Origin: an uncultured Gammaproteobacteria bacterium
GTDB lineage: Bacteria > Patescibacteriota > Patescibacteriia > UBA9934
Direction: 5' to 3'
DNA: 64,000 nt
Assembly (NCBI GenBank): GCA_964452565.1
Contig: CAYVLY010000001.1
Location: 579,053-643,052, forward strand
A program made the translations under genes and the position numbers. The notes beneath the pieces are model-generated. The model was not told the DNA's origin. It did no database searches and was given only the letters and a program-made list of their open reading frames with translations. Shown here piece after piece: positions 28,640 through 51,482 of the stretch. Every line of letters begins with the position of its first letter. Within the stretch, counting starts at the first letter, position 1.

Positions 28640-29008
28640 CTACCTGTTGACACCGAGCTCTTCGGTGAGACCGGGACGGTGCTGGGCCATGGCACGGCAG
28701 ACCCTGGCAGCGATCGGCTCGAGCCGATCGTGCCGGCGGTACTTGCCGAAGAAAATCCAGAACCGTTTGGTAACTGCAGCGTCGCCGATTTCCGTATCTT
28801 TGATGAACTCGATCAGGTACCCTGCATCCTGCTCGCACTGGCTGCGGAACGGATTGCCGACCTGACGCTGACGCTGCCTGTCCCTTTCCTGGCGGAGGCT
28901 GAGGAGGAAGATGTGCAGAAGACTCGTGAGTATCGCGATGATCCTTTCGTTTGATCTGGGTGGACTCAAAAAGCCGATCAATATATCAAAAAAGGGACCC
29001 GCTGTCAA
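28640..29008 (-). other. Ambiguous small ORF pair in a high-GC segment (minus 122 aa with TTG start, or plus 28679..28954 91 aa); coding status uncertain
   Basis: Overlapping ORFs on both strands in a 63% GC stretch; no clear RBS for either. Confidence 0.2.
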
Positions 29009-29049
29009 TAGCAGACCCCTATTTTTTACCTAAAATAAAACAAAATCTT

Positions 29050-31404
29050 TTACTCAACCACCCCCTCACCCTCTTCCAATGGTTCAAGTTCTTCTTCACT
29101 GACCAACCCTTCTTGCAGTCGCTCGAGACGTTGAATGATCAATTCATTATCAGGATTTTCTTCCAAAACAATCTCCACCTGCTCGATTGCAAGCTCGATC
29201 TCACCCTGCTGTTCAAATACAGATGATAGGAACCATCGTGCATTGCTGTAGTCAGGTGATAGCTCCACCACATACTCAAGCTGCACCTGTGCCTCATCTA
29301 GCTTTCCTTGCTGTAGATACAAAACTCCAAGCTGAAACGCGAGTCCTGCATCATATGGACTTATATCCTGCAATGCCTCAAGCCCAGCAATTGCATCAGT
29401 TAGATTCCCCTGCCTTTCATATGTAAGCGACAAATAATACTGTGCTATTGAGTAGTCATTTTTTAGTAATAACGCATTCATGAGAGCCTGAACTGCCAAA
29501 TCTAACACCTGCTCCTTATACGCCAGTGCGTCTTCTGAAACACCCTCATCCTCACTTGCAGCAACTATATCCAATAAGTCAGCTTGCGCGATATATGCCC
29601 TTCCTAGTGATACATAGAAAACCGGATTTACTGGAGATAGTAATATGGTGCTCTCATACGCCTGAATGGCAAAAGCATCAGCACCAGAGATAAACGGAGT
29701 CATCTCGCGGTATACATCTCCCAGCATTGACTGATTAGCCACAACATTTGGAGAAAGTTCAACAGCACGCTGAGCATAATAGACAGTATTTGCAATATAT
29801 CCCTGCACTGCCTCTGGATTAACATCTGGGTCAGTCAATAACTCGGCAGTCTTCACAAGTAATGCCTGGGATAAATTCCTTGCATAGATATCGCTCCACT
29901 TATTCAACTGTGTGGCGCTCACAAGATCTTCAATCACCTCATCTGTGCTGTCTCCATATTCACTGTGAGCTACAGCTTTTGCAAAAGATACATCAGCTGC
30001 GTAACGAGAAATCGTTATAAAACCAGTTGTGACAATTAATATTGCACACACAACAAAGCCAAATGATAATGCAAACGATGCCTTTGGAGTTTTCTTATAA
30101 GTAATTGTCCGCGACTTTGTTAAAACTGCGCTCAACATGGCCGCGCCAAACAACCAAAGTAGAGACAATATAGTTGTATTTGATGAATACAAGAATTGAG
30201 ATGCAGCCAATATAATCCAGCCAAGTGTAAGAATGAATACTGGCAGCCACTTGTCATCTTTTTTAGTTCTCAAGAGCCACCCCACTGCCTTCAGCATGGT
30301 TACCAGCAACACAATGAGGTAAACAAGCGTCACGGCTATACCTGCAGTGGTAAGCGTTGTCAGTATGTGGCTTCCAGAACGATTGAAAGATAAATTCCAA
30401 AACTCTGACAGATTGACTGACGCAGGCTTGTATTGATGATAGTCAATCTCAAATGTTCCAGGGCCTGATCCAAATAGCCAAGAAGTGTTAGCGAGTGTGT
30501 CCTTTGCTATTTGATAACTTGACGAATAGGTTGGCGCAACCTCAACTGGAAAAACAAGCCCACCTGGAGTTGGAACAAACATGAACACCAGCGAGATGAC
30601 CAAAACCATCACCGGTAAGAAGATCCTCGATAATGTCACGTGTCTGAGGTCGCGTAAGAGCATAACGCTAAAGATGATCGCAACCCCCAAAACCGTCAAA
30701 GCCCACAAAAACCAATAATCTAACCCATAAAGAACAATGACACCAAGGGGAATGATTGCTCTCGAACACAATGCAGCGGTTTTTGATAAGAGGCCCCGCT
30801 CACCATCAAAAAAATCCTTTTGCAAAAATCCAAATCCCAAAGCCATTACAAGAGCCATTACAGCGATTACCCCCATTGCATTTGGTGACCCAATAAAGTT
30901 CTCAGCAAAAACATTTACACCAAAAACAGACAGTGTTCCAAAAAGAAGGATGAACACACTCACAATGAAAACAAGATCTACAGCCCTATATATCGAATCC
31001 TTCTTATCCAAAACATTTACTCCAACCAGGAACAAAACAATCATTGCAACCCAGGACACCAAACTCACATACTCCTGCCCCATACCGCCAAAGACGCTAG
31101 TCCAAGGGGCGAGCGACATGCAAGATGAGATTAAAACTCCGGCTAACAGTATTATTAACCAAACGTGCAGGCTTGTTTTTTTGTATTCAAGCGACTTTAA
31201 GACAATAAACGATGCCAGCCATGACAGTAGTGCAAGGATCGCACAAAAGACCAATACTGTCTGTTTGTTTATCTCAAGTGCATCTGAGGTCCATGGTAAG
31301 TATGCTAACGGAATCAGAATAAGTGCTGCATACAAAAAAAATCGTGCAGCTTTTCTAAAGAATAAAACGAGACGATGCTCTCGCCTATGCAAAACATCTA
31401 ACAT
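29050..31404 (-). CDS. O-antigen ligase (Wzy_C)-like polytopic membrane protein with C-terminal TPR repeats
   Basis: More than 10 TM helices in the N-terminal 450 aa; C-terminal TPR-like repeats (...AQYYLSLTYERQGNLTDAIAGLEALQDISPYDAGLAFQLGVLYLQQGKLDEA...); acidic tail. Confidence 0.6.
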   Translation of the reverse strand: MLDVLHRREHRLVLFFRKAARFFLYAALILIPLAYLPWTSDALEINKQTVLVFCAILALLSWLASFIVLKSLEYKKTSLHVWLIILLAGVLISSCMSLAPWTSVFGGMGQEYVSLVSWVAMIVLFLVGVNVLDKKDSIYRAVDLVFIVSVFILLFGTLSVFGVNVFAENFIGSPNAMGVIAVMALVMALGFGFLQKDFFDGERGLLSKTAALCSRAIIPLGVIVLYGLDYWFLWALTVLGVAIIFSVMLLRDLRHVTLSRIFLPVMVLVISLVFMFVPTPGGLVFPVEVAPTYSSSYQIAKDTLANTSWLFGSGPGTFEIDYHQYKPASVNLSEFWNLSFNRSGSHILTTLTTAGIAVTLVYLIVLLVTMLKAVGWLLRTKKDDKWLPVFILTLGWIILAASQFLYSSNTTILSLLWLFGAAMLSAVLTKSRTITYKKTPKASFALSFGFVVCAILIVTTGFITISRYAADVSFAKAVAHSEYGDSTDEVIEDLVSATQLNKWSDIYARNLSQALLVKTAELLTDPDVNPEAVQGYIANTVYYAQRAVELSPNVVANQSMLGDVYREMTPFISGADAFAIQAYESTILLSPVNPVFYVSLGRAYIAQADLLDIVAASEDEGVSEDALAYKEQVLDLAVQALMNALLLKNDYSIAQYYLSLTYERQGNLTDAIAGLEALQDISPYDAGLAFQLGVLYLQQGKLDEAQVQLEYVVELSPDYSNARWFLSSVFEQQGEIELAIEQVEIVLEENPDNELIIQRLERLQEGLVSEEELEPLEEGEGVVE

Positions 31405-31416
31405 ATTTGATCTTTA

Positions 31417-34400
31417 TTATTCGGAAAGTTCAGCCTCCGTTGTTGATTCCTCTACTATAATTTGTGTCTCTTCTACAGGCTCCTCTGGTACTGCTTCGGT
31501 TTCAGACTCTTCGACAGCCTCAGGCTCAGCTGTATCAGCCTCCTCATCAATAGGCTCTTCTACAACCTCTTCTTCGATGGCCTCATCGGTCACTTCTTCC
31601 TCGACAACCTCCTCAGACTCATCAGACGGCTCGTCTTCAACCGGCTCCTCTTCTGATTCATCAACAGGCTCCTCAGTCTCTTGATCTGGAGATTCATCGG
31701 CCTCATCTTGTTTCTCAGTCTCTTGATCATCGGCTTCATCTACTTCACTTTGCTCCTCATCTTCAATCTGATCATCCACCTCAACGACCTCATCATCATC
31801 TTGATCAGCAATCACATCTGCTTCAACCTGCTCATCTGGCTCATAGTCCTTATGATATGCAATCACAAGCCAGTCAACATCAACATGTGATGTGCCCTCG
31901 GTGTCTCTAATGATAAATCCGTCATTCTCACGGTTAATTGCATAAAGTGAGCCGGTAGCATTGTGCGCTGTTAGGTACACGCGATATGGGGCTGTTAATG
32001 AAACCACATCTGCGAAGCTCTCGTCATAATCATCAAAATAAATGTGTGCTCTTCCCTGCTCGAGTTCGATTGTTCCTGAAAGCTGGATCGTTGTTTCACG
32101 TGAGGTCACCGCATATGTCTCGATTGTATCTCCACCATAGGTTTCGATCTCCTGAACAAATCGATCGCCAGTCCTAAATGCGCCGCTGTCGTCGATCGAC
32201 CAGGCGCTTCCAATTCCACTCAATGAACTGACTGAGATCAAGCTTCCACCGTTTAGATTCACCACACCTGAAAGATCCAACGATGTCGACGGGATCAACT
32301 CGGTTAACTCATTGTCTGAAATATCAGGCTCTTGTCCATCGTAATAAGATGGTCTGACAAACACTGTAATAGATCCTGTGCCACTACTGAACGATTCCAT
32401 TGCATATCCAACAATTGGGCCAGCCTCAACTGCCTTCATGGCATACCCTGGCGTTGATGAGGTTGTGAGTGGATCACCAATTTCGATCGATCCATTTTCT
32501 GCGCTTACATAGGTTGGAACTCGTCCGGCTAGAGCCACGGGAATGTGCCCGTCGATGTTTTGACCAGCTAAGAATCCGGGTTGGGTTGAAACAATTCCTG
32601 CAATCGTGTCGTCATAGGTTATTCCAGTTGAACGCATTACTGACTCCTCGTCATTTGCAAAGACAACAACCTCTCCAGGTGAAACAGATTCAACCGCTGG
32701 GAACATCTCTGCAAAGTCATACGACCCCGAGCCCCATCCAGATGCGTTTGTCCTCATGAAGTCACCGCCTAATCCAGTTGAGCCATCGTAATAAATGTAC
32801 TTATCGGTTTGAAGTACTCCTTGATCTGATGGGTATAGCTTTCCAGAGATTGCCAGGTCACCATCTTGGTTCACGAAAGCTAGTTCATTTGAATCTCCGT
32901 CTTCGATAGACAACTTATATTCACTCGCATCTGTGACATGTGTGACAAATCCAAGAGAAACATCCTGCGCGCCTGCCCCGTCCCATCCAGATCCGCGCAG
33001 CATCAATCCATATGAATCCATGCCTTGAGTTGAAGCATTGGCCGTGCCGGTCGCACCCAATGCCAGATCGTCAGAAACAAGTGTTACTGATCCGCTATCT
33101 GTTAATACCCCAACAGCTTGCCATGTTGGTTTAACATATACATCTATAGTTCCTGTTCCTGAAGAGTGCGATTCAAGCGCCTGTCCTAGAACATAGCCAA
33201 CTCCTGTTGCCTTCTTTGCAACTCCAGAAGTTGATGAAAGTGTAATGTAATCTCCAGCACTAATCGAACCACCCTCAGTGTTAACAGTCACCGGAACCTG
33301 CCCTAAAAGCGCTACTGGAACATAGACACCAGTGTCTCGCCAGCCATCAAACCAGTTACCAAGTGTATTTGGTGCAACCGAGTATGCACCAATTATCTCA
33401 TCGGCGTCTGATGCAAGAACTACGTTCCCAGATGAATCAAGTCCAATGATATCGCCCTCTGAAAAACTGGAGAGCGTCCCTGGGAAAAGCTCCGCATAGT
33501 CAGATCCAGCTGATGCATTTGTTACTCCTCCACCGCCATCACCCTCAACTGCTCCAAGCACTGTTCCGTTCCCGTCCTTGAACATGAGGTAGTTACAAGC
33601 CGCGGTTGGGTTCGTATCAAGACATGCCTGAATATTAATTCCCATGTTTGTATCTGCATTTCCATCATTAAAGAAACTTGCAATAAAATCTGTGGTACCG
33701 GTTGCGAAAACATTTATCGGCTGCCCATCTCCTGTTTGGTTGATATAAAGACCATCTGCTGTACCAAAATTAGCTATGTTGATGCCCCTACCATTTCCGG
33801 TCTGATTAATATTCAAAGAAGCTCCCGTACCACTATTACTCAAATTGAGAACATTTCCCGTCGAAGCGGTATCAGAAATCTGGAAGTTCACCAAGCCGGT
33901 TGTGGTATTTGTAAAGTCTGTTCCTGAGTCGGTACGGTTCACATTAATTGCCTGCCCGGTTGTCAAAGTGCTATTTGTTATATCAACAATATTCGATACT
34001 GCTTCACCTGTTCCATCGATCTCCAGCAGGCCATACATGTACAAATCGCCTGCTCCAGTGGCTATCGCTGCGGTAGAGGGAGAGTTACTGTTTTCTATAT
34101 GCACTGCTGACCCATGAAAATAGCCTGCATAGTTAGCTGTCCCACCGCCGGCACTTGCCCGAATTCCATAACGCGTTGTGCCGGCACTATTATTTGAAAA
34201 ATCACCACCAAAACCTGTTGTGAGCGTGCCTGCACCTGAAGAAATATTACCCCACACACCAGTCGCCTGTGTAACAGTTCCTGCAGTTGTTACAGCATTT
34301 CCATAAACACCAATCGCTAATGGAACAGTGGAACCGGCGCCATTGTTTTGAACCTGTCCATAAAGTCCAGTCACTGTTGATTCAATTGCACCTGCGGCCG

Positions 34401-35577
34401 TTGAAGTATTTATAGCGATCCCCTCAACTCCACGAAGTTCATTAAGCTCCCCTGAACCGGAGTTGGTGGCGGTCCCACCAATTGCTATTGCCTTTTGATC
34501 GTAGCCCCCTGCCTCAACACTGCTATTGGTTATCGCGGAATATATTTCGTACAGATTGTATATTCCGTTACCACCAGATGCTGCTGCCGAAACTGTGGAA
34601 CTAGCTTCAAATAAGTTAAAGTTGCCCGGAGCCGCAGCATATAGGGCAGCTGGACTATGCTCTAAATAGCCATTTTGAAAATCCCACTTATCAGCATTGT
34701 ATAAAATGTCAGCATCAGCACCGCCAGCATCTTTAAAGCTCAATGTTGGATTCTGTGCTGCATCACCAAAATAGATAATTCCTGTGCCTGGTGCTACACC
34801 AAAATCCGCAGCCGCGGCTGTATTTGCACCAATGGCAACATCGTCACTTGAAGTCGTTAAATAGACTACCGAGCCTCCGTCAGTCCAACCGAGATCAGTG
34901 GTTAGAGCAACAATTCCTGTAGAATTAGGGAACGTGATAGTCTTATCGCCGACCGTTGGATCAGTTATCGCAAACCTTGTTTCAAAATCGTCTGCAGTAG
35001 CTCCCTCAAACACTAAGGCGTTTTCTCCAGCAAATGTGGCAGCAGTGAAATTATTTACTCCAGTCACAGTATTGTCCGCTGCTAACTGGAAGAAGCTTGC
35101 AGATCCAATACCATCGAGTGTGTCGGCATTGAGTGCATACGGAACTGCCACCAAACGCTTTCTTGGGGTTAGCGCCTCTCCCTCAATCGTAACCTTTAGA
35201 TATACCCCCGCATTATCTCCAAAAACCCCGGCCGGAATCGCGGCATACGAGTCGCCCGTATCACCAAGGTTCTCTGAAAAAAGACCATCAGTTAGGGTTA
35301 TTGTCTTTGCAGTTGATGTGGCGCAGGTTGCAGATGAGTTAGACCAGATACACGAACCTGCTGTTGGGTCATCGTAAAACTCAAATAGTATATCCACGGT
35401 GGCATCAGATACTGGAACGCTATTTGCGTTTAGAATACGACCTTGATATGTAATGAACCTCGGTGGAGTTGCAGCCGCAGAGACAAGTTGAGCTAAAGCT
35501 GAAAAAACAATAAACAAAGCCAGCAAAAGGACTGTGGCCTTTTTTGTTTTTGAAAATGGTTCACTCAGTATTCTCAT
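31417..35577 (-). CDS. Giant secreted/cell-surface protein (~1386 aa) with a tandem-duplicated ~135-aa C-terminal module and a ~150-aa poly-acidic tail
   Basis: Signal peptide MRILSEPFSKTKKATVLLLALFIVFSALA; Gly/Thr/Asn-rich beta-like repeats; two paralogous modules starting ...SDYAELFPG and ...SYDFAEMFPA; D/E-rich C-terminus. Confidence 0.7.
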   Translation of the reverse strand: MRILSEPFSKTKKATVLLLALFIVFSALAQLVSAAATPPRFITYQGRILNANSVPVSDATVDILFEFYDDPTAGSCIWSNSSATCATSTAKTITLTDGLFSENLGDTGDSYAAIPAGVFGDNAGVYLKVTIEGEALTPRKRLVAVPYALNADTLDGIGSASFFQLAADNTVTGVNNFTAATFAGENALVFEGATADDFETRFAITDPTVGDKTITFPNSTGIVALTTDLGWTDGGSVVYLTTSSDDVAIGANTAAAADFGVAPGTGIIYFGDAAQNPTLSFKDAGGADADILYNADKWDFQNGYLEHSPAALYAAAPGNFNLFEASSTVSAAASGGNGIYNLYEIYSAITNSSVEAGGYDQKAIAIGGTATNSGSGELNELRGVEGIAINTSTAAGAIESTVTGLYGQVQNNGAGSTVPLAIGVYGNAVTTAGTVTQATGVWGNISSGAGTLTTGFGGDFSNNSAGTTRYGIRASAGGGTANYAGYFHGSAVHIENSNSPSTAAIATGAGDLYMYGLLEIDGTGEAVSNIVDITNSTLTTGQAINVNRTDSGTDFTNTTTGLVNFQISDTASTGNVLNLSNSGTGASLNINQTGNGRGINIANFGTADGLYINQTGDGQPINVFATGTTDFIASFFNDGNADTNMGINIQACLDTNPTAACNYLMFKDGNGTVLGAVEGDGGGGVTNASAGSDYAELFPGTLSSFSEGDIIGLDSSGNVVLASDADEIIGAYSVAPNTLGNWFDGWRDTGVYVPVALLGQVPVTVNTEGGSISAGDYITLSSTSGVAKKATGVGYVLGQALESHSSGTGTIDVYVKPTWQAVGVLTDSGSVTLVSDDLALGATGTANASTQGMDSYGLMLRGSGWDGAGAQDVSLGFVTHVTDASEYKLSIEDGDSNELAFVNQDGDLAISGKLYPSDQGVLQTDKYIYYDGSTGLGGDFMRTNASGWGSGSYDFAEMFPAVESVSPGEVVVFANDEESVMRSTGITYDDTIAGIVSTQPGFLAGQNIDGHIPVALAGRVPTYVSAENGSIEIGDPLTTSSTPGYAMKAVEAGPIVGYAMESFSSGTGSITVFVRPSYYDGQEPDISDNELTELIPSTSLDLSGVVNLNGGSLISVSSLSGIGSAWSIDDSGAFRTGDRFVQEIETYGGDTIETYAVTSRETTIQLSGTIELEQGRAHIYFDDYDESFADVVSLTAPYRVYLTAHNATGSLYAINRENDGFIIRDTEGTSHVDVDWLVIAYHKDYEPDEQVEADVIADQDDDEVVEVDDQIEDEEQSEVDEADDQETEKQDEADESPDQETEEPVDESEEEPVEDEPSDESEEVVEEEVTDEAIEEEVVEEPIDEEADTAEPEAVEESETEAVPEEPVEETQIIVEESTTEAELSE

Positions 35578-35641
35578 ACTTCCACATCTATGCGCATGGT
35601 TGTGCACAGGTAGGAAATACGACGGATGTATTATACCTCGT

Positions 35642-38134
35642 TTACGGTTGTTTTTTTAGCTCTGTATCAACAGAAATCAACTCTGGTTCTTTTTTGCCGG
35701 TCAGGTCTATAGGGCGAACTTCCTGTTTTTCATATCCAGGTCTTTCAAATGTCACATAATACTCATTTGGCCCTGCCATGAATGCATATCTACCAGACCC
35801 ATCTGTAACAGTGGATTCGATCAACTTATTAAACTTTGGTTCAAATAACCGAACAACTGCATTTGGTAATGCCTTCTTGACATGGGCGTCACGAACAATT
35901 CCCCACCCCTTCTTCTTTCGTAGTTTTGTTAACGCCTTTGTGGTTCCATAAACGGTCACATGAACAGTTACAAGGGCAATACTAAATATTGTTGGTTGAA
36001 TTATTAGAATAACAACTGCCATTAACAATCCCGCTAAGGCTAAAACATTCTGAAATACCCTCAAGAACCTCTTGAATATCAACTTCTTTGGTGAATGATA
36101 CTTCTCCTCCTGCGAAGGATCGACCGGAATATTTGCAGCAATTACGACATCTTCTTGAGTCACCTCAATAATGCCCTGAGTATAAATATCCTCAAACATT
36201 TCATCTTTAGTAGCTCCCTCCATGTATTCGCTTGGGAATGTAAATCCAGCTTTCTTAACATCGAGCTTGTATCTACCCGGCTTCACACGAAGAATGTAGT
36301 GACCCTCCTTGTCAGAGACCGTGGTCTTAACAAGCTTACCCTGTTCCGAATAGAGTCGGATTGTTGCAAGATCAACCGGCAACTTTGTTATTGCATTGTA
36401 AACAGTTCCAATGCGCTTTTTTCTTCGACGTGCAAAGAATAAAATTGGCGAGCTAAACAAATACCGTAGATATGGGATGAGATTAAAGGATGACGAAAGA
36501 ACTCCAGCGCTTCCCACTGCAGTTACAACTGCAACTGGAGTTGTCACATCTGCCACTGCCTGTACCTCGGGAAGTTCGCGTATTTCATTAATAACCTCCA
36601 CGACTTCTACTACGGTCTCGGCAACAACCTCAACTGTTTCCGCAACTGCACCAACAGGCTCCTCTTCCTCCTCAACAACCACAATTTCAGAACGCGTCAT
36701 CCGAATTGATGGGGCTAATACATTATTTGAAACTCGTATGACAACCTCTGCGTCTTCATAGCCACTCTTACCTGCAGTCACAGTATAAACACCATCAGGT
36801 ACATAAAATCCTATCGCCCCACTGCTGCCGGATGAGGTAGGGTTCGACTGCCCATATGAACCAGCATCCCACTGAGTTCGATCCTCACCACTTCCTTCAT
36901 AAACAATAACCACCGCACTTTCAACCCCTTGATCTTCATCGTCGATCTCCTCATAAACCCAACCATAACTAACAACTCCCCATGACTGAGTATCTGTAAC
37001 AGTCTGACCATCAGTGTAGTCAACAATGACTGTTACCACTTGATCATCCTGCTCGACTGGGATCAACCCCTGATATATACCTTCTAGAACTTCAGCAAAA
37101 CCATAAGTTGTATCGTCAACGACCACCGTAACCTCCTCAACGTCTTCTTGATCATCAACAATAACCTCAACCTGAGCATATGTGCCTGGGAGTAGATCGT
37201 CATCATCAATAACAATCTGGCCATTACCAACAGTTATCTGCGTTTCAACTTCGCGATCTTCTTCCTCTCCAACTCCGTCGTCTTCAGGTTCATCCTCATC
37301 CTCTTCTGAATCAACTACACCGCCTCCATCATCAGCTGCGCCATCTCCGTCATCTTCACCGTCATCGTCCCCTTCTCCGTCTGCGTCGCCATCGTCGTCA
37401 TCACCCTCATCCTCCGGCTCTGGTTCGGGTTCCGGCTCTGGTTCGGGTTCGGGTTCCGGTTCCGGCTCTGGTTCGGGTTCGGGTTCCGGTTCCGGCTCTG
37501 GCTCAGGTTCCGGCTCACCATCGTCTCCATCATCACCTCCAACAGGGCCACCCCCACCACCAGTAGGACTTGGCACGGTTGTACTCACATTTCCATCATC
37601 ATCAGTCACAATAGGAACTGGTACAGACCCTGAAAGTTTATTCGCCGCTGTTGTAATCCAAATAAAATACGTAGCGGCATTTGATGGATTTGTAATTCGA
37701 TTGGACCCCGAACCATATGCTGATGCGTTTGTTCCAATCTCAACAATGACCTCACTTCCGGATGCCACCTCACCACCATCCCCAGAACACCAAGCCACTG
37801 TTAGATTCTGGCCAGAAACGGAAATATCTACATGGTCTGTTCCGGTACAATCATCAGCTGTTGTTAAATCAACTCCATCGTCGGATACATCGACATCGTC
37901 TTCTGTTATTGAAGAAAGATCAAAACCTGCGGGATAAGTGATCGTCAGGGTGTCTGTGTCGGGAATGGCAACCGATGTAGTAAAAACAAATCTGTGATTA
38001 GATCCCGTGCTTACTTTTGAGGAGGTTATCTGGTCGTAAAGATCTGTGGGTGTAGAAAATGCAAAAGCAAAGCTAGCCGACAAGGTCAATGCAGCAATCA
38101 CGAGGAGAACAAATGTTTTAACGACGCTTCGCAT
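35642..38134 (-). CDS. Surface protein with an (EP)19 repeat, poly-acidic region, CarboxypepD_reg-like domains and TM segments
   Basis: Signal peptide MRSVVKTFVLLVIAALTLSASFA; EPEPEP... x19; motifs GHYILRVKPGRYKLDVKKAGF and GSGRYAFMAGPNEYYVTFERPGYE. Confidence 0.7.
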   Translation of the reverse strand: MRSVVKTFVLLVIAALTLSASFAFAFSTPTDLYDQITSSKVSTGSNHRFVFTTSVAIPDTDTLTITYPAGFDLSSITEDDVDVSDDGVDLTTADDCTGTDHVDISVSGQNLTVAWCSGDGGEVASGSEVIVEIGTNASAYGSGSNRITNPSNAATYFIWITTAANKLSGSVPVPIVTDDDGNVSTTVPSPTGGGGGPVGGDDGDDGEPEPEPEPEPEPEPEPEPEPEPEPEPEPEPEPEPEDEGDDDDGDADGEGDDDGEDDGDGAADDGGGVVDSEEDEDEPEDDGVGEEEDREVETQITVGNGQIVIDDDDLLPGTYAQVEVIVDDQEDVEEVTVVVDDTTYGFAEVLEGIYQGLIPVEQDDQVVTVIVDYTDGQTVTDTQSWGVVSYGWVYEEIDDEDQGVESAVVIVYEGSGEDRTQWDAGSYGQSNPTSSGSSGAIGFYVPDGVYTVTAGKSGYEDAEVVIRVSNNVLAPSIRMTRSEIVVVEEEEEPVGAVAETVEVVAETVVEVVEVINEIRELPEVQAVADVTTPVAVVTAVGSAGVLSSSFNLIPYLRYLFSSPILFFARRRKKRIGTVYNAITKLPVDLATIRLYSEQGKLVKTTVSDKEGHYILRVKPGRYKLDVKKAGFTFPSEYMEGATKDEMFEDIYTQGIIEVTQEDVVIAANIPVDPSQEEKYHSPKKLIFKRFLRVFQNVLALAGLLMAVVILIIQPTIFSIALVTVHVTVYGTTKALTKLRKKKGWGIVRDAHVKKALPNAVVRLFEPKFNKLIESTVTDGSGRYAFMAGPNEYYVTFERPGYEKQEVRPIDLTGKKEPELISVDTELKKQP
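37415..37517. repeat. Hexanucleotide (GGYTCN) tandem repeat encoding (EP)n, including an exact 30-bp duplication (37441-37470 = 37471-37500)
   Basis: Direct inspection of the sequence. Confidence 0.85.
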
Positions 38135-38972
38135 ACCTCCAAATGATAAACAATATAATCAAGCACCCAAGTATCAACCCCAGGGTCTTGACTGATACAA
38201 ACCAAACTACCACCGAATCTGAGTGCACTTCTCCACCATCCCAAGGCTCCGCATCAAATCTGAGCTCATAGGGCCCCAATGCCCAATTGTTATAAATATC
38301 AACAACAAATGTGCGCTCCTGGTTGTTCGCAATTCTTTTTGATTCTGGATTGATATCGAACACATCAACCACGCCGCCGGTCCAACTAATAAGCGAAACT
38401 ATGCCGTTTGGCTGCACAAACCTATCACCCGAATTTCTCACAGTATAAAAAGTCTGAGCATTGCCAAAAGAAAATGATCTGTCAGCTTGGTACCCCAACC
38501 ATTCAACAGATTCAGATATATCATCACCGATTGTTAAAAAAGCTAACGAAATAAAGCCAGACTGTACAGATGGCTCCAGCTGGCCTGTAACACTTTCTAC
38601 TATTCGAATCCCAACTACCATTGTCTGCGATTTGGTCGCAATATCAGGACTTATCACTATGCCAAATTCTCTAACCTCACCGGGCATCAGTTCAAATTCC
38701 TGGAGTTCTGACGAAAACCATTCTTCAACCCCGGGGTCTAGATCAAAAAAACTATACTCACCCTCCTCAAGACCAAGGTCCACTCCAATGAAATCAATTG
38801 CATATGCCCGAGAATCTTCGTTGCTATTTTGAAGTGTTATTAGAATCTCGGCACTCTCGCCAGGATCAATAGAAACGTCTTGAACCGATGGATATAAAAG
38901 CGATGCATGTACAGGCTGCGTCAGGCATAGAAAAAATATAACCAATGATACAACTCTAATAATCACCGACAT
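38118..38972 (-). CDS. Secreted protein with C-terminal TM anchor and short basic tail (cell-surface protein; DUF916/DUF3324-like architecture)
   Basis: Signal peptide MSVIIRVVSLVIFFLCLTQPVHA; C-terminus ...LGLILGCLIILFIIWRYAKRR; the start overlaps the upstream gene and the stop overlaps the downstream gene. Confidence 0.5.
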   Translation of the reverse strand: MSVIIRVVSLVIFFLCLTQPVHASLLYPSVQDVSIDPGESAEILITLQNSNEDSRAYAIDFIGVDLGLEEGEYSFFDLDPGVEEWFSSELQEFELMPGEVREFGIVISPDIATKSQTMVVGIRIVESVTGQLEPSVQSGFISLAFLTIGDDISESVEWLGYQADRSFSFGNAQTFYTVRNSGDRFVQPNGIVSLISWTGGVVDVFDINPESKRIANNQERTFVVDIYNNWALGPYELRFDAEPWDGGEVHSDSVVVWFVSVKTLGLILGCLIILFIIWRYAKRR

Positions 38973-39876
38973 ACAACAATGTAACTGTGTGTGAATAGGC
39001 TCCGCTACTTATAGAATCGTCGGTTGATAGCTTTAAGGTTATGAAATCTCTAGTATTGAATGAGTTGGATGACCTGCTACCTATCTGCTGAAGGCTGCTT
39101 GTTATTGGGCTATCCTGTGTATCAAAATCTGAACTTGCAAGCGTTGTGTCAGATGACTTGGCACCATACTCTTTAGACCCCGCCGCGACAGCACCGTCAG
39201 AAACATCACTAATTGTATCAGTTCCATTAGTTAAATTCTGATCCTCATATACATAAACGCTGTAACCATCACCAACATCTGCGGTTACTTCCCATCCAAT
39301 TATAGAAGTTGAAACCGTAGAGGTTGTCGGCTCTGCCATTGTGGTCGCACTTGCATTCAATGCATAAAGATAATCGCTACTTCCATCTATGCTTGGTGTA
39401 GCGCCAGAATGCCACTCGTCAACAGTGATATCAGGATCGCTAATTGAAGCTATCTTTCCCATTGTCGAAACCTGCGAGGCTCCCTCGTCCTGTACCAACG
39501 CAACCATATCACCAACCGAAAATCCTGTTACGGAAGAAACTGTTACCGTTGTGCTAGATAGGGATGTTGCCGATACTTGAGATGAGCGATCCTCTATATA
39601 AATTGAAAAATCAGCAACGCGATCGTAGACACCGGCTCGATATCCCTGGTCAAGCTTATAAGTCGTGCTTGAACCCCCAGAGTCCGCGCTTTGATCAACG
39701 GAGTCTCTCAAGATATATGACGTTGATGAAGAGGCGTCGTCACCTCCCGCGCTTATGCTATCCCATTGAATCTGGAAGTTGGTTGAGGTCATCTGACCAG
39801 AAACAGAAAATCGGCAGCCAAAAATAGCTACAAGAATAGTGAGAGCAATGACTAGCCCCTTCTGTTTCATACACAA
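38956..39876 (-). CDS. Secreted Ser/Thr-rich hypothetical protein (first gene of the surface operon)
   Basis: Signal/lipobox-like MKQKGLVIALTILVAIFGC; S/T/D-rich; overlaps the next gene by 17 nt. Confidence 0.5.
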   Translation of the reverse strand: MCMKQKGLVIALTILVAIFGCRFSVSGQMTSTNFQIQWDSISAGGDDASSSTSYILRDSVDQSADSGGSSTTYKLDQGYRAGVYDRVADFSIYIEDRSSQVSATSLSSTTVTVSSVTGFSVGDMVALVQDEGASQVSTMGKIASISDPDITVDEWHSGATPSIDGSSDYLYALNASATTMAEPTTSTVSTSIIGWEVTADVGDGYSVYVYEDQNLTNGTDTISDVSDGAVAAGSKEYGAKSSDTTLASSDFDTQDSPITSSLQQIGSRSSNSFNTRDFITLKLSTDDSISSGAYSHTVTLLYVGDY

Positions 39877-40036
39877 GAATTATATCAATGAACACAATTT
39901 TTAGCTAAAGCCATATTTGGCCAACCTTAGCATAATATATACTCTAGGGTGTGGATAATTCTGGGTCTGACCCCTTTAAAAACGAATGACCTGTGGAGAA
40001 GTTAGAATCCTAGTTGTCTACGCCATGCTGGACATC

Positions 40037-40052
40037 TAGTTTCACGTGAAAC
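40037..40052. repeat. 16-bp palindromic motif tagTTTCACGTGAAAc, copy 1
   Basis: Identical 16-mer recurs at 40592-40607; core GTTTCACGTGAAAC is a perfect 14-bp palindrome. Confidence 0.6.
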
Positions 40053-40195
40053 CACATGAAACTCATCTCCTTTGACAAAGTACATCTTGTAAAAATGTCG
40101 AACGTAAACTTTTCATGGCAACCTGGGTCTGCACAATATAAACAAATGAGGATTAAGCGATGCGACCAGGCTGTATCCTGGCAGCCGTAAGTACA

Positions 40196-40228
40196 GCACT
40201 GCTCTTTACTGGCAGTGCTTTTCTTCTC
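40196..40228 (+). terminator. Plus-strand rho-independent terminator in the non-coding region (implies a divergent small transcript)
   Basis: agcactgc-tctttactg-gcagtgct, then tttcttctc. Confidence 0.45.
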
Positions 40229-40482
40229 AATAACCAGGAACCTCATGAGGCATCACGCAAAATCCCAAGAGTGTACTGAAATTAATTGTGATAAGGTGCT
40301 CATCATTGATAAACCGTGACCGCACCACCGGAAAACTCGTTAGTCCACGACTCGGCCTTCTGCCTTCTTGCAATTTTCCATAAAAAAGACACTTTAGACA
40401 GCAACTTTAATATACCCCCGGAGGGGGTCAGACCCAAACAGCTCGTATAATGAGTACTTTCATCGCTTGCCGCTGATCCAGG

Positions 40483-40512
40483 AAACAAAAGAACCGCCTT
40501 GCAGCGGTTCTT
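40483..40512 (-). terminator. Terminator downstream of tRNA-Arg
   Basis: aagaaccgc-tgcaag-gcggttctt, then a T-rich tract on the minus strand. Confidence 0.5.
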
Positions 40513-40513
40513 T

Positions 40514-40590
40514 TGGTGACCCCGGTAGGACTCGAACCTACAACCTTATCCTTAGGACGGATCTGCTCTATCCAGTTGAGCTACGGAGCC
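40514..40590 (-). tRNA. tRNA-Arg (anticodon CCT), CCA encoded
   Basis: Manual cloverleaf: GGCTCCG-TA-GCTC-AACTGGATA-GAGC-A-GATCC-GTCCTAA-GGATA-AGGTT-GTAGG-TTCGAGT-CCTAC-CGGGGTC-A-CCA (77 nt). Confidence 0.85.
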
Positions 40591-40591
40591 T

Positions 40592-40607
40592 TAGTTTCAC
40601 GTGAAAC
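40592..40607. repeat. 16-bp palindromic motif tagTTTCACGTGAAAc, copy 2 (abuts the tRNA-Arg 5' end)
   Basis: Identical to the 40037-40052 copy. Confidence 0.6.
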
Positions 40608-47941: not shown

Positions 47942-48090
47942 GATTCCCTCCTTAGGGTCGTCACAACATGCACACCATTGTGCACTTAGACTATGTCATA
48001 CAGTAAATATTCACACCATGCAATCTGTCGTATTTTTCTGACACTTTTTGACGGGCAATGATTATTGCTTTATCCTTATTATATATGTAT

Positions 48091-48858
48091 ATGGGACACT
48101 ATGATCATTTGCTTGCTGGACTTGAGGCTTTTGGTCTGTCAAAAAAAGAGGCAGGGATATATCTTTGCATTCTCCAGACCGGCCCCGCAACTGTCTTGCA
48201 AATATCACGCAAAACACAGCTTGCACGTACAGCGCTTTACCCAACACTTGAAAACCTAGTCGCGCGCGGTGTTCTAAAATCAGGAAAGGAAAAGAAAAAA
48301 ACTGTATTCGCTGTTGAGCCACCAAAAGTACTCCGTAGAAAACTAAAGGAAAGGGAATTGGCATTTGACGATATTTCATCTGAACTCGGCGTTTTATACG
48401 ACCATGTTTCATCCAGCCCAGATATAGTCCTATACGAAGGTACTGACGGGTTCAAACGAATGTGGCAAAGAATCTACAACTCTGGTGTTGATGAATATCG
48501 GATGTTAACAAGCGCCACCGGAATGCTTGACTATGTAAAAACTCCCTATGTTATACAGAGCGTTATCGCACGTCGGATTAAGCTCGGGATTAAGAGCTTG
48601 CAACTACTACCGGAAAATCGGGAAACTCGAAAAATTGTTCAAGACGACACAAAACAGCTGCGCGAATCACGCTTCCTACCGCCCGACACAAAGATCCCGG
48701 CAACAGTTATACAGTTCGGTAGTGAGGTTGCATTTATGACCACCAGACGTGAGAACGCAATGATCATTATGGCAAGTGGTGATGTAGCGCATACCTTCAA
48801 AGCGATGTTTGACATTATCTGGAAATGCGCAAAAAATCCTTATAAATCAACCAACTAA
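48091..48858 (+). CDS. TrmB-family transcriptional regulator
   Basis: N-terminal wHTH LGLSKKEAGIYLCILQTGPATVLQISRKTQLARTALYPTLENLVARGVL. Confidence 0.55.
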   Translation: MGHYDHLLAGLEAFGLSKKEAGIYLCILQTGPATVLQISRKTQLARTALYPTLENLVARGVLKSGKEKKKTVFAVEPPKVLRRKLKERELAFDDISSELGVLYDHVSSSPDIVLYEGTDGFKRMWQRIYNSGVDEYRMLTSATGMLDYVKTPYVIQSVIARRIKLGIKSLQLLPENRETRKIVQDDTKQLRESRFLPPDTKIPATVIQFGSEVAFMTTRRENAMIIMASGDVAHTFKAMFDIIWKCAKNPYKSTN

Positions 48859-49175
48859 AACGAGCCCGCAGCGAAGTGCGGACTCTACCGATCGAGCACA
48901 AGGGCTCACGCGGAGCAATCACAGCTGAGAGAGGATCGTTTTCGTAAAGGAGAAGATGATACGATCCTACTGTGTTCACTCCTGAGTCACCAAGGTGGGT
49001 CATGGCGATCACTAACAGGGCTCTGGAGAAGATGGCTTGAACTCTTTACCTGACGTGATCAGACCCGAGTTCTCATGGTCACCTCCTTTCTACCTGACTA
49101 CTTTATGTATAGCAAAACCGCCACTAAGTGTCTATAGCAGCCAAAAACCACTTTATTGAGTTATAATATATCCAT

Positions 49176-49406
49176 ATGGAATACACACAGAAATCACTAG
49201 AGCAGTACTTTGAAGAGTTTGGCGTCAAAGATGCCGATGCAAAGGCAAAGCTCTTACCGCTCATCACAGACCTTATCTATGACCGCAATATGCATGTTGT
49301 GGGCCTAGAGAAGTTTAAAGATGACGAATACAAGCACAAACAACTTGAAGAGGGGATCGCTGACTTGGAGGACGTAATTAAGAGACAATTCGAAAGCGCC
49401 AATTAA
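49176..49406 (+). CDS. Small hypothetical protein (76 aa)
   Basis: ORF immediately upstream of gpmI; acidic/helical composition. Confidence 0.3.
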   Translation: MEYTQKSLEQYFEEFGVKDADAKAKLLPLITDLIYDRNMHVVGLEKFKDDEYKHKQLEEGIADLEDVIKRQFESAN

Positions 49407-49413
49407 CGCCAAT

Positions 49414-50982
49414 ATGAAACCAACAGCACTTATTATCTTGGACGGCTTTGGGATTGCCCCGCCTTCTGATCCAAACGCGATCTGGACTGCACAAACCCCA
49501 TTCATCGATTCATTGATCAACACTTACCCAACACACCTCTTGCATGCCTCTGGAATCGAAGTTGGACTACCAAAAGGTGAAGTAGGAAACTCAGAGGTTG
49601 GTCACATAACTATTGGATCTGGTGTTTTGCGCTATCAAAGCTTGCCGCGAATTGATAAGGCAATTGAAACCGGGGCCTTCTTTGATGATCTAAAGCTCGC
49701 AGCCGTAAAAGACCACCTCAAATTAACAAAAGGAAAGCTTCATGTCATCGGATTGATCGGAAATGGAGGCGTACACTCACACCAACGCCACCTTGAAACA
49801 CTTCTTGAATGGTCTCATAAAAACAAGCTTCACAAAGACACATTCATTCACGCCTTCTTGGATGGTCGAGACACGCAAAAGGATCTTGGAGCGCAGTTTA
49901 TGCAAGAGCTTGTTGAAACTTGCGGCAAGCAAAAGATTGCAGGAGTCGCCTCTGTGTGTGGTCGTAAGCTTGCAATGGACAGAAACAACAATTGGGATCG
50001 GATTGAGCGCGCTTACAACACAATCGCACTTGGATCTGCCGGTCTAGTTCATCAAAATCCAGTTGAAGCCATTCAATACGCATACACCCAAGAGCAATAT
50101 GACGAAGAGTTTGAGCCAGTTGTTATCACTGACAAAAAGGGAACTCCGATCGCAACTTTCGCCGACGGCGATGCAGTAATCTTCTTTAACTTCCGCGCAG
50201 ACCGCGCCCGGCAGCTCACCGAGGCAATGGTTAACCAAGCTTTTGATAAGTTCGAACGCGCGCTTGTGCCAAACATGCATGTTCTGACGTTTACAGAGTA
50301 TGAAAAAGACCTTCCGGTTAATGTTCTTTTCGAGCCAGAGCTGATCACAAACCCAATCGCCAAGGTTGTGTCCGACGCTGGACTCAAACAATTACACATT
50401 GCAGAGACAGAAAAGTATGCGCACGTGACTTTCTTCATGAACGGAATGATTGAAGAGCCTTTTCCGGGAGAAGATCGCGAGCTCATCCCATCGCCATCAG
50501 TCGCGAGTTATGATGAAAAGCCAGAAATGTCCGCTCCAGAACTAACTGCAAAGATCATTGAGTCACTCGATGCACAACAGCACCACTTCTACATCATAAA
50601 CTTTGCAAATCCAGACATGGTTGGTCACACCGGAAACCTAGGGGCGTCACGAAAGGCGGTTGAAGCAGCGGACAGTGCGCTAAAACAGGTAGTTGAGAAA
50701 ATCATAGAGCTTGGCGGGCAGGTATTCATAGTGGGGGATCACGGAAACGCTGAGGAGCTTCTTCATCCGGTGACCGGAAAAGTAGACAAGGAGCATAACA
50801 ACTACCCAGTGCCGTTTATCATGGTATCTGACGCGCTCAAAGACCAACGAAATACAGAGGTCACACACGAGAATCTACATTTGAAAGCACCGATCGGCAT
50901 CCTGGCGGACGTAGCACCAACTATCTTGCAGGCCGCAGAGCTCCCAATTCCTCCAGAGATGACAGGGACACCGCTAATCTGA
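49414..50982 (+). CDS. gpmI: 2,3-bisphosphoglycerate-independent phosphoglycerate mutase
   Basis: MKPTALIILDGFGIAP...GNSEVGHITIGSG... ; iPGM length and motifs. Confidence 0.9.
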   Translation: MKPTALIILDGFGIAPPSDPNAIWTAQTPFIDSLINTYPTHLLHASGIEVGLPKGEVGNSEVGHITIGSGVLRYQSLPRIDKAIETGAFFDDLKLAAVKDHLKLTKGKLHVIGLIGNGGVHSHQRHLETLLEWSHKNKLHKDTFIHAFLDGRDTQKDLGAQFMQELVETCGKQKIAGVASVCGRKLAMDRNNNWDRIERAYNTIALGSAGLVHQNPVEAIQYAYTQEQYDEEFEPVVITDKKGTPIATFADGDAVIFFNFRADRARQLTEAMVNQAFDKFERALVPNMHVLTFTEYEKDLPVNVLFEPELITNPIAKVVSDAGLKQLHIAETEKYAHVTFFMNGMIEEPFPGEDRELIPSPSVASYDEKPEMSAPELTAKIIESLDAQQHHFYIINFANPDMVGHTGNLGASRKAVEAADSALKQVVEKIIELGGQVFIVGDHGNAEELLHPVTGKVDKEHNNYPVPFIMVSDALKDQRNTEVTHENLHLKAPIGILADVAPTILQAAELPIPPEMTGTPLI

Positions 50983-50987
50983 TCAAT

Positions 50988-51254: not shown

Positions 51255-51267
51255 AAAAACAAACAAA

Positions 51268-51293
51268 AGAACCGCCTCTAGGGCGGTTTTTAG
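51268..51293 (+). terminator. Rho-independent terminator
   Basis: aaccgcc-tcta-gggcggtt, then TTTT. Confidence 0.55.
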
Positions 51294-51482
51294 TTACGCA
51301 ATTCAGGCACCTGCCTCCCCATACAGCTCAAGGCAACCCAACTTACATCTATATAACGGTGTTGTTGTAGGACCATCTACCACACCAATCTCTTGACTTT
51401 TCCCTTTTAATGCAGTATTTTTTGTTATTAAGAACCTCTTTTGTGCATTTTATTTCTACAAATTAGTTGCTAACTATAATAT

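What the first reader, a model, noticed from the sequence alone, without database searches (positions are those of the whole stretch)
29050..39876. 10.8-kb co-directional cell-surface operon: four secreted proteins plus an O-antigen-ligase/TPR membrane protein
Five consecutive minus-strand genes run from 39876 down to 29050: a secreted S/T-rich protein, a TM-anchored surface protein, an 830-aa (EP)n/CarboxypepD_reg protein, a ~1390-aa giant protein and a Wzy_C-like/TPR protein. Starts and stops overlap by 16-17 nt (38956/38972, 38118/38134) or sit 10-30 nt apart, which indicates a single transcription unit. All four upstream proteins carry signal peptides; none of the soluble ones matches a named family that I can recognise. 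The combination resembles envelope/attachment loci such as WxL-type loci in Firmicutes or S-layer/adhesin clusters. In a reduced, possibly episymbiotic genome such a locus is a candidate host-attachment or envelope-assembly system. This is the most plausible previously undescribed system in the window.
Basis: partly seen in the sequence, partly recalled or inferred. Interest (0 to 1): 0.7.

Follow-up and report, generated by a model that had tools for sequence, protein, structure and literature searches.

The report
Minimal CPR Pam-type pilus/adhesin cassette
This five-gene operon in an ultrasmall Uhrbacteria (CPR) genome is a stripped-down version of the recently described "Pam" pilus of CPR bacteria, and it probably builds a membrane-anchored surface fibre used to contact host cells.

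Summary
Five co-directional minus-strand genes (39876→29050) have junctions of -17, -17, +34 and +12 nt, with a terminator-like hairpin after the last gene. The same cassette, in the same order, occurs in all 80 Uhrbacteria/Patescibacteria genome loci examined and, around shorter pilins, in most of 42 long metagenomic loci.

It is not an entirely undescribed system.
- g1 belongs to the Pam pilin superfamily (bioRxiv 10.64898/2026.03.03.709456). 77 of 84 orthologues hit NCBIfam PamT, and g1 is PamT-like plus an inserted β-barrel.
- g3 carries a pilin NTD plus the linker (donor) strand but no acceptor domain. A spacer and a 3-TM anchor follow, so it looks like a terminator/anchor.
- g4 is a tail-fibre-like protein with duplicated chaperone modules.
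- g5 is a divergent Wzy_C/TPR protein.

Best reading: a minimal, single-pilin Pam-type donor-strand surface-fibre system. This is a new variant of a known kind. Assembly, filament formation and host binding are inferred, not shown.

The parts
38956..39876 (-). g1: secreted PamT-like pilin (306 aa). It has a signal peptide, a conserved N-terminal extension, an inserted β-barrel (aa ~86-170) and a C-terminal Pam-type Ig domain (aa ~170-306).
39622..39792 (-). g1 N-terminal extension (aa 29-85): three SSxSYxL-type β-strand motifs. It is a candidate strand-donating or docking segment.
   Evidence: It is as conserved as the best core blocks (entropy about 1.05 bits) yet has pLDDT below 50 in the monomer model. 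The same triple motif is shared by all short PamT-like relatives.
38118..38972 (-). g2: membrane-tethered chaperone-like protein (signal peptide, two β-sandwich domains, C-terminal TM helix aa 261-283, basic tail).
35642..38134 (-). g3: anchor/terminator candidate (830 aa), made of a signal peptide, pilin-type NTD plus linker strand (aa ~27-195), Gly/(EP)n spacer, further β-domains, TM1, a basic transthyretin-like domain, a TM hairpin and a second basic transthyretin-like domain.
   Evidence: The N-terminus aligns with the NTD and linker of two-domain Pam-type pilins and then diverges into the spacer. Pfam finds CarboxypepD_reg twice. TM segments are and the charge asymmetry (pI 4.1 vs 9.5-9.7). 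The C-terminal module scores E 1e-100 to 1e-125 in other lineages, and g2-g3 are fused in three loci.
31417..35607 (-). g4: secreted tail-fibre-like protein (1396 aa), with a conserved N-domain (aa 41-160), a variable Gly/Thr/Ser-rich middle, duplicated IMC-like modules (699-829 and 960-1088), a conserved C-terminal part and an acidic tail.
   Evidence: NCBIfam Bdello_MAT_N at 32.8 bits, below cutoff. PHROG tail fibre E 5e-5. Orthologues hit Peptidase_G2 IMC, with L013 at 25.1 bits against a cutoff of 25. The internal duplication is 41% identical, E 5e-27, and the conservation profile is.
29050..31404 (-). g5: polytopic membrane protein (about 12 TM, aa 1-470) with an acidic C-terminal TPR domain. 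It is a divergent Wzy_C/O-antigen-ligase-superfamily member.
   Evidence: TPR Pfam hits only. hhalign of the family against P0301 gives probability 99.2%, E 1.2e-19, over 595 columns, and P0301 has Wzy_C at 64.6 bits against a cutoff of 31.7. It lies adjacent to the fibre or to the pilin in other lineages.
28993..29020 (-). Terminator-like hairpin (11 pairs plus a T-run) 30 nt after the g5 stop.
39877..40513 (-). About 640 nt of non-coding leader between tRNA-Arg(CCT) and g1, presumed to hold the promoter. It contains one of the two parS sites (40039-40052).

Best explanation
The locus is a minimal, single-pilin variant of the CPR-type (Pam) donor-strand pilus system, combined with a tail-fibre-like adhesin and a Wzy_C-like membrane protein. 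The proposed mechanism has five steps. (1) g1-g4 are exported by Sec. This is inferred from their signal peptides. (2) g2 is held at the outer face of the cytoplasmic membrane by its C-terminal helix. It caps the incomplete Ig domain of the PamT-like pilin g1 by β-strand complementation, as PapD-type chaperones, the proposed PamC/D chaperones and WxLIP do. This is inferred from fold and homology. (3) g3 has a pilin NTD and the linker (donor) strand but no acceptor domain. It donates its linker into g1 and so terminates and anchors the assembly. Its Gly/(EP)n spacer and β-domains would carry the tip through the wall, and its 3-TM module with two basic, probably cytoplasmic, transthyretin-like domains would fix it in the membrane. 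This is inferred from the alignment to two-domain pilins. (4) The probably trimeric, tail-fibre-like g4 docks through its conserved N-domain onto this base, possibly through g1's conserved three-motif N-terminal extension or its tailspike-anchor-like insert, and presents the contact surface. This step is speculative. (5) g5 modifies or attaches the Ser/Thr-rich exported proteins, for example by PilO/PglL-like O-glycosylation, with the external TPR domain recognising the substrate. This step is also speculative. Whether g1 also polymerises on its own through its N-terminal extension into a true filament is open.
Confidence: 0.6

Rival explanations
1. It is a WxL-like, non-filamentous surface-display complex. 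g2 (WxLIP-like) simply holds g1 on the wall or membrane as a static adaptor that links the cell surface to a host surface, and g3 and g4 are independent adhesins. No donor-strand polymer or ordered assembly forms.
For: The g2 family is sequence-homologous to WxLIP. WxLIP is proposed to bind and stabilise WxL proteins by inserting a β-hairpin, without forming a filament (PMC10599100). Each locus has only one pilin gene. Giant proteins ending in the same Ig domain occur in other lineages, which mirrors the 'large WxL' proteins.
Against: No WxL domain or dual WxL motif is present in g1-g4 or in 71 PamT-like relatives, and there is no LPxTG partner. g1 is homologous to pilins of a filament solved by cryo-EM. 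g3 keeps the pilin NTD and donor linker, which argues for at least one strand-exchange step.
Confidence: 0.2
2. It is an envelope or S-layer and glycan assembly locus. g5 acts as an O-antigen-ligase or polymerase-type enzyme that builds or attaches a surface polysaccharide, and g1-g4 are structural wall or S-layer proteins.
For: g5 belongs to the Wzy_C superfamily. The exported proteins are very acidic and Ser/Thr-rich. g5 homologues also occur outside the cassette, for example in Yanofskybacteria next to YceG.
Against: The cassette has no glycosyltransferase, flippase or sugar-nucleotide genes. There are no S-layer (SLH or similar) domains. g1 and g2 have specific pilin and chaperone affinities. 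The usual catalytic His of Wzy_C is not conserved in g5.
Confidence: 0.1
3. It is a domesticated or remnant phage tail-fibre module. g4 and its neighbours derive from a prophage and are unrelated to pili.
For: Tail-fibre and IMC signals in g4. g1's insert resembles the tailspike N-terminal anchor.
Against: The chromosomal position between RmuC/S20/holA and YchF is fixed in many species. No other phage genes are present, and PHROG hits are otherwise absent. GC content shows no discontinuity. The cassette is conserved across more than 100 species.
Confidence: 0.03

Closest known systems
Pam pilus system of CPR bacteria (Ca. Mycosynbacter amalyticus; Troman et al., bioRxiv 10.64898/2026.03.03.709456; NCBIfam NF058579 PamT, NF058581 CPR_Pam_pilin_C)
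   Same: g1 has the Pam-type C-terminal Ig pilin domain and the PamT-like N-terminus. The chaperone-like protein has a signal peptide, two β-sandwiches and a C-terminal TM helix, like PamC/D. There is a membrane-anchored subunit that can donate but not accept a strand, which is the role proposed for PamR. A tail-fibre-like gene is co-located. The system is restricted to CPR, there is no usher, and no trans-envelope machine is evident.
   Different: It has one pilin gene instead of four or five (no PamA/B/E-type two-domain pilin). g1 carries an inserted β-barrel. The anchor (g3) is built from a pilin NTD, linker, (EP)n spacer and a 3-TM module with two transthyretin-like domains, not the RbmA-like 2xFnIII plus one TM helix described for PamR. 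A Wzy_C/TPR gene is an integral part of the cassette. The lineage is Uhrbacteria (Parcubacteria group), not Saccharimonadia or Microgenomatia. The neighbourhood is RmuC/holA/parS, not ATP synthase. All scores are far below the curated cutoffs.
WxL loci of Firmicutes (small WxL + large WxL + WxLIP = DUF916/DUF3324 + TM; PMC10599100; PDB 9i1y, 9i25)
   Same: g2 is homologous to WxLIP over the DUF916 (PGBD) domain and has the same layout of two Ig-like domains plus a TM helix. Both are monoderm surface systems in which the membrane-tethered protein is thought to insert a β-element into a small secreted partner. In related lineages, giant proteins ending in the same small domain mirror the 'large WxL' proteins.
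   Different: No WxL domain and no LPxTG protein are present. The partner is a Pam-type pilin Ig domain. The cassette has the additional conserved g3, g4 and g5 components.
Classical and archaic chaperone-usher pili (Pap/Fim, Ecp, CFA/I, Csu)
   Different: There is no outer-membrane usher because the organism is a monoderm. The chaperone is membrane-anchored. There is no sequence homology. In this family the donor strand of the two-domain subunits is an inter-domain linker, not an N-terminal extension.
MAT (mosaic adhesive trimer) fibres of Bdellovibrio and phage tail fibres/tailspikes with intramolecular chaperone domains (PMC10769870; Pfam Peptidase_G2, Peptidase_S74)
   Same: g4 has a signal peptide, a conserved β-rich N-domain, a long variable fibre and IMC-type modules, in a bacterium that probably lives on other cells.
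   Different: All matches are weak or sit at the cutoff. The IMC-like module is internal and duplicated. The C-terminal half is conserved and the middle is variable, which is the opposite of MAT tip-swapping. A long acidic C-terminal tail is present.
Pilin O-oligosaccharyltransferases of the Wzy_C family (PilO/TfpO, PglL). This comparison rests on my own knowledge, not on a tool result.
   Same: g5 is a Wzy_C-superfamily polytopic membrane protein encoded next to a pilin gene, and the exported substrates are Ser/Thr-rich.
   Different: Pfam makes no direct Wzy_C call. The canonical His is not conserved. An added TPR domain is present. No activity or glycan has been shown.

Membership tests
Pam (CPR-type) pilus system | [quoted passage not shown] | tested here: met
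   Met at superfamily level only. 34 of 84 g1 orthologues hit NF058581 Pam_pilin_C (best E 7.1e-8) and 77 of 84 hit PamT. g1 scores E 8.8e-42 against the PamT-like profile, and 61-66 of 71 of those relatives hit the Pam models.
Pam (CPR-type) pilus system | PamT equivalog (NCBIfam NF058579 cutoff 240 bits) | tested here: not met
   g1 scores 27.5 bits and matches only the N-terminal part of the model. The best orthologue E-value is 1.6e-14, still far below the cutoff.
Pam (CPR-type) pilus system | PapD-like chaperone(s) with a signal peptide and a C-terminal TM helix (PamC/PamD) | tested here: inconclusive
   Architecture and fold fit.
Pam (CPR-type) pilus system | Two-domain major pilins (NTD, linker strand, CTD) such as PamA/PamB/PamE | tested here: not met
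   Only one pilin-family ORF is present in the 64-kb window and in each of the 80 related loci. g3 has the NTD and linker but no CTD. The rest of the genome was not available.
Pam (CPR-type) pilus system | Membrane-anchored terminator (PamR: RbmA-like 2xFnIII, N-terminal strand, TM helix) | tested here: inconclusive
   g3 is membrane-anchored and donor-only by alignment, and FN3 domains occur in orthologues, but its architecture differs. PamR was not available for comparison.
Pam (CPR-type) pilus system | Assembly of an extracellular filament by donor-strand exchange | not testable with these tools
   This needs multimer modelling or cryo-EM/cryo-ET. Only monomer models could be made.
WxL locus (Firmicutes) | WxLIP: DUF916 (PGBD) + DUF3324 + C-terminal TM helix | tested here: met
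WxL locus (Firmicutes) | Small and large proteins carrying a WxL domain (dual W-x-L motif) | tested here: not met
   No Pfam WxL hit in g1-g5 or in 71 PamT-like relatives. No W-x-L motif occurs in g1, g3 or g4.
WxL locus (Firmicutes) | Associated LPxTG (sortase-anchored) protein | tested here: not met
   No LPxTG-like motif occurs in any of the five proteins.
Chaperone-usher pili | Outer-membrane usher | tested here: not met
   No usher family hit in Pfam or NCBIfam for any cassette protein. g3's membrane part is α-helical TM segments.
Chaperone-usher pili | Periplasmic PapD-family chaperone (sequence family) | tested here: not met
   The similarity is at fold level only. No PapD_N or PapD_C Pfam hits occur in 72 orthologues.
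Wzy_C / O-antigen ligase family (g5) | Pfam PF04932 at or above the gathering score | tested here: not met
   No Wzy_C hit at E<=1 in g5 or in 13 orthologues.
Wzy_C / O-antigen ligase family (g5) | Full-length remote homology to a protein with a bona fide Wzy_C domain | tested here: met
   hhalign gives probability 99.2%, E 1.2e-19, over 595 columns against P0301. P0301 has Wzy_C at 64.6 bits against a cutoff of 31.7.
Wzy_C / O-antigen ligase family (g5) | Conserved His of the periplasmic-loop 'aHN' motif | tested here: not met
   The His of P0301 aligns to Gly344 of g5, and the family consensus there is Ser-Ser.
MAT / tail-fibre proteins with an IMC domain (g4) | MAT N-domain (NF053851 cutoff 60) or an IMC domain above the Pfam cutoff | tested here: inconclusive
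   MAT_N scores 32.8 bits, below 60. The window g4 has no Pfam hit. Orthologue L013 hits Peptidase_G2 at 25.1 bits against a cutoff of 25, and L012 at 19.3. PHROG tail fibre scores E 5e-5.

The most novel reading that the evidence does not exclude
This five-gene cassette may be a widespread, ancient monoderm 'chaperone-anchor' donor-strand system that links Firmicute WxL loci and CPR Pam pili in one evolutionary family. In its minimal form it would build not a long pilus but a one-subunit capped stalk (g3 plus g1). That stalk would display a phage-tail-fibre-like trimer (g4), docked through the pilin's three-motif N-terminal extension or its tailspike-anchor-like insert, with g5 acting as a dedicated glycosylating or attaching enzyme. 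The result would be a phage-receptor-binding-like device used by ultrasmall episymbionts to recognise hosts.
Probability: 0.2. Interest if true: 0.8.

Novelty: new variant of a known kind. Interest (0 to 1): 0.6.

Why it matters
CPR/Patescibacteria make up a large share of bacterial diversity and live attached to other cells, yet how most of them recognise and hold their hosts is unknown. The Pam pilus was described only in 2026 and only for Saccharimonadia and Microgenomatia. This locus shows that a recognisable but much reduced version is fixed in Uhrbacteria and in other uncultured lineages. It has one tip-like pilin, one tethered chaperone, one donor-only anchor, one tail-fibre-like protein and one Wzy_C/TPR protein, and current annotation labels all of them 'hypothetical'. 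The analysis gives a defined five-part system with testable protein-protein predictions. It suggests that the chaperone component shares ancestry with the WxL-interacting proteins of Gram-positive pathogens and commensals. It also points to the tail-fibre-like protein and the variable parts of g3 and g4 as candidate determinants of host range.

Tried and rejected
1. Direct sequence searches of g1, g2 and g4 against PDB found nothing meaningful. The PamT-like profile also finds no PDB chain, so the PamA/B filament structures are either absent from the PDB copy or not detectable with it.

2. NCBIfam on 72 g2 orthologues gave no Pam chaperone model.

3. I looked for a Pfam WxL domain in the pilin family to link Pam pilins to WxL proteins. 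There were no hits.

4. I tested whether g3 or g4 share a domain with g1, as small and large WxL proteins do. hhalign aligned only the signal peptides. The pilin-related part of g3 turned out to be the NTD, found through two-domain pilins.

5. A direct Pfam Wzy_C call on g5 and its orthologues found none.

6. The 16-bp palindrome in the leader first looked like a cassette-specific operator. It is 66-fold enriched upstream of the cassette in 63 of 140 loci. I rejected that reading because the sequence is the canonical parS.

7. I looked for parA, parB or dnaA nearby. ORF 51483-52262 has no PDB relative and ORF 53049-54479 is MurF.

9. The first metagenome scan attempt failed because the alignment was too diverse, so I redid it with a subset.

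10. The prophage explanation was rejected on synteny, composition and the lack of phage genes.


Full report
**1. Observation**

The five minus-strand ORFs are present exactly as described:

| Gene | Coordinates | Length |
|---|---|---|
| g1 | 38956-39876 | 306 aa |
| g2 | 38118-38972 | 284 aa |
| g3 | 35642-38134 | 830 aa |
| g4 | 31417-35607 | 1396 aa |
| g5 | 29050-31404 | 784 aa |

The junctions are -17, -17, +34 and +12 nt. A strong terminator-like hairpin lies 30 nt after the g5 stop (29020-28993), and the next gene downstream is convergent. About 640 nt of non-coding leader separates g1 from tRNA-Arg(CCT).

g1-g4 have N-terminal hydrophobic signal-like segments. g2 also has a C-terminal TM helix. 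g3 has internal TM segments. g5 has about 12 TM segments followed by TPRs. The flanking genes are housekeeping: RmuC, holA, RNase HII and PolA on one side and YchF on the other. No transcript data exist, so "one transcription unit" rests on spacing, the terminator and synteny.

**2. Organism and conservation**

The closest relatives are Candidatus Uhrbacteria in the Patescibacteria/Parcubacteria group, and the source contig is about 709 kb.

A scan of species-representative genomes with the g1 family returned 105 confirmed loci, of which 80 were kept. Nearly all are labelled Uhrbacteria or Patescibacteria. In all 80 the gene order is g1 > g2-slot > g3 > g4 > g5 on one strand, as far as each contig extends. 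The g2-slot ORF (280-340 aa, hydrophobic at both ends) is present even where BLAST cannot see it. A family HMM finds it in 79 of 80 loci, exactly one copy per locus except L011, where it is split between two adjacent ORFs. Each locus also has exactly one pilin-family gene. The 17-nt overlaps recur in relatives at about 55% identity.

**3. g1 is a Pam-superfamily pilin**

- g1 alone gives a weak NCBIfam hit to "CPR-type pilus protein PamT" (27.5 bits against a cutoff of 240, N-terminal part only).
- Of 84 orthologues, 77 hit PamT (best E 1.6e-14) and 34 hit "Pam pilus system pilin subunit".
- An exhaustive profile search found 1,361 representatives. Many are 210-240 aa proteins that match g1 in two stretches, the N-terminal extension and residues ~170-305. 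Of 71 such relatives scanned, 66 hit PamT and 61 hit Pam_pilin_C.
- So g1 is a PamT-like protein plus an inserted module (~86-170).

The AF2 model is confident for residues 85-306 (pLDDT above 90) but not for 27-82. Yet residues 29-85 carry three SSxSYxL-type motifs that are as conserved as the best core blocks and are shared by the whole superfamily.

The Pam system itself was described in bioRxiv 10.64898/2026.03.03.709456. It comprises the PamA/B/E two-domain pilins (NTD, linker strand, truncated Ig CTD), the PamT tip, the PamC/D PapD-like chaperones with a C-terminal TM helix, the PamR membrane-anchored terminator, and a co-located tail-fibre-like gene.

**4. g2 is a tethered chaperone-like protein homologous to WxLIP**

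A profile of 72 g2-slot orthologues hits EfmWxLIP1 in PDB at E 1.4e-9 over the DUF916 domain. 21 of 72 orthologues hit Pfam WxLIP_PGBD. WxLIP is proposed to stabilise WxL proteins by inserting a β-hairpin (PMC10599100).

No Pam chaperone model was hit in NCBIfam. The preprint mentions neither WxL nor Uhrbacteria.

**5. g3 looks like a donor-only anchor**

In metagenomic loci there are ~360-aa proteins made of a g3N-like domain followed by the Pam Ig domain, which is the PamA/B architecture. Aligned with them, g3 matches through the NTD and the linker strand: g3 has VPVPIVT-DDDGNVSTTV where the pilins have LAVPIMT-EDQVTVSATV. g3 then diverges into a Gly/(EP)n spacer where the pilins continue into the acceptor domain.

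Downstream, g3 has further β-domains, a TM segment followed by RRRKKR, a CarboxypepD_reg domain, a TM hairpin and a second CarboxypepD_reg domain. All predicted external parts have pI about 4.1, whereas these two domains have pI 9.5-9.7. By the positive-inside rule that fits a cytoplasmic location, which is an inference.

This C-terminal module is the most conserved component across lineages (E 1e-100 to 1e-125). In three independent loci g2 and g3 are one ORF with a consistent topology. Larger orthologues carry FN3 domains.

**6. g4 is tail-fibre-like**

- The N-domain weakly matches the Bdellovibrio MAT fibre N-domain.
- There is a weak PHROG tail-fibre hit.
- Orthologues hit the Peptidase_G2 intramolecular-chaperone domain at the cutoff.
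- g4 contains an internal duplication of that module (699-829 vs 960-1088, 41% identity, E 5e-27).
- The N-domain (41-160) and the C-terminal half are conserved. The middle (160-680) and the acidic tail are variable.
- MAT fibres have the same general layout and are thought to dock through the N-domain (PMC10769870).

**7. g5**

Pfam and NCBIfam see only TPRs, and homologues are CPR "TPR proteins". The family nevertheless aligns end to end (probability 99.2%, E 1.2e-19) with a CPR protein that has a bona fide Wzy_C domain. The usual His is not conserved.

In eight metagenomic loci g5 sits immediately upstream of the pilin. In a Staskawiczbacteria contig a g5 homologue directly follows a different fibre protein carrying a Peptidase_S74 domain. 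In a Yanofskybacteria contig it stands outside any cassette.

**8. Beyond Uhrbacteria**

Around short PamT-like pilins in 42 long metagenomic loci, the counts were g2 in 41, g3C in 24, g3N in 17, g4N in 22 and g5 in 12. Many of these loci are truncated, so the counts are lower bounds. Some loci have several pilin paralogues or giant proteins (up to 2,641 aa) that end in the pilin Ig domain. The taxonomy of these loci was not determined.

**9. Interpretation**

The best-supported reading is a minimal, single-pilin variant of the Pam-type donor-strand system. g2 would chaperone g1. The g3 linker would complete g1 and anchor it. g4 would be the displayed fibre, and g5 a modifying or attaching enzyme.

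Shown here are the homologies, folds, architectures and co-conservation. Inferred are export, strand complementation and topology. Speculative are how g4 docks, what g5 does, and whether g1 polymerises on its own.

It is not a WxL locus because it has no WxL domain and no LPxTG protein. It is not a classical chaperone-usher system because it has no usher. A prophage origin is unlikely given the fixed chromosomal position, the uniform composition and the absence of other phage genes.

**10. Novelty**

The kind is known from a 2026 preprint and from NCBIfam models, but every protein here falls below the curated cutoffs and is annotated as hypothetical. As far as the preprint text shows, four things are not described there:
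- the single-pilin layout
- the NTD-linker anchor with cytoplasmic transthyretin-like domains
- the integral Wzy_C/TPR gene
- the homology of the chaperone component to WxLIP

Verdict: new variant of a known kind.

Noticed in passing
window 40039-40052 and 40594-40607; also L005-L164 leaders: Two perfect copies of GTTTCACGTGAAAC (extended consensus TGTTTCACGTGAAACA) lie in the leader upstream of g1, against 0.01 expected in the window. This is the canonical chromosomal parS (ParB-binding) site. It is 66-fold enriched in the 1.5 kb upstream of the cassette in 63 of 140 related loci, usually as 2-3 copies and as 10 copies in L067. So the pilin cassette sits next to a conserved parS cluster in Uhrbacteria and other CPR lineages. 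Whether ParB loading affects its expression is unknown.
   Followed up: partly
window 40514-40590 (-): tRNA-Arg(CCT) lies co-directionally just upstream of the cassette leader, with a parS site 3 nt from its 5' end. 80 of 130 related leaders also contain a tRNA gene within 1.5 kb upstream of the pilin.
   Followed up: partly
L107 10656-14651, L118 6905-10873, L144 10747-13443: g2 (chaperone-like) and g3 (anchor) are fused in a single ORF of 899-1332 aa in three independent metagenomic loci. The former g3 signal peptide acts as a second TM segment, so both ectodomains stay outside.
   Followed up: yes
L128 1338-9260, L146 3868-8616, L132 1-3507: Giant proteins (1,169 to 2,641 aa) end in a PamT-like Ig pilin domain. 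They resemble 'large WxL' proteins or two-domain tip adhesins and are candidate adhesins incorporated by strand exchange.
   Followed up: partly
L165 4199-12319: In a Staskawiczbacteria contig a g5 homologue directly follows a 1,927-aa protein with a Peptidase_S74 (tailspike intramolecular chaperone) domain that my g4 HMMs do not detect. This suggests a recurring pairing of fibre proteins with this Wzy_C/TPR family.
   Followed up: partly
window 35642-36577 (-), g3 aa 520-830: Two CarboxypepD_reg (transthyretin-like) domains, which are normally extracytoplasmic, are predicted here to be cytoplasmic. They have pI 9.5-9.7 and flank a TM hairpin after RRRKKR and KLRKKK clusters. This module is the most conserved part of the whole cassette across lineages, and its function is unexplained.
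   Followed up: partly
window 53049-54479 (+): This ORF is MurF (UDP-MurNAc-tripeptide--D-Ala-D-Ala ligase; PDB 3zl8 E 9e-31). The co-directional run of ORFs from 48058 to 55642 is probably a cell-wall synthesis cluster, which would mean this CPR organism makes peptidoglycan.
   Followed up: partly
window 40195-40219 (+): A 9-bp-stem hairpin with a T-rich tail lies on the plus strand inside the g1 leader, pointing away from any annotated plus-strand gene. Its role is unknown.
   Followed up: no
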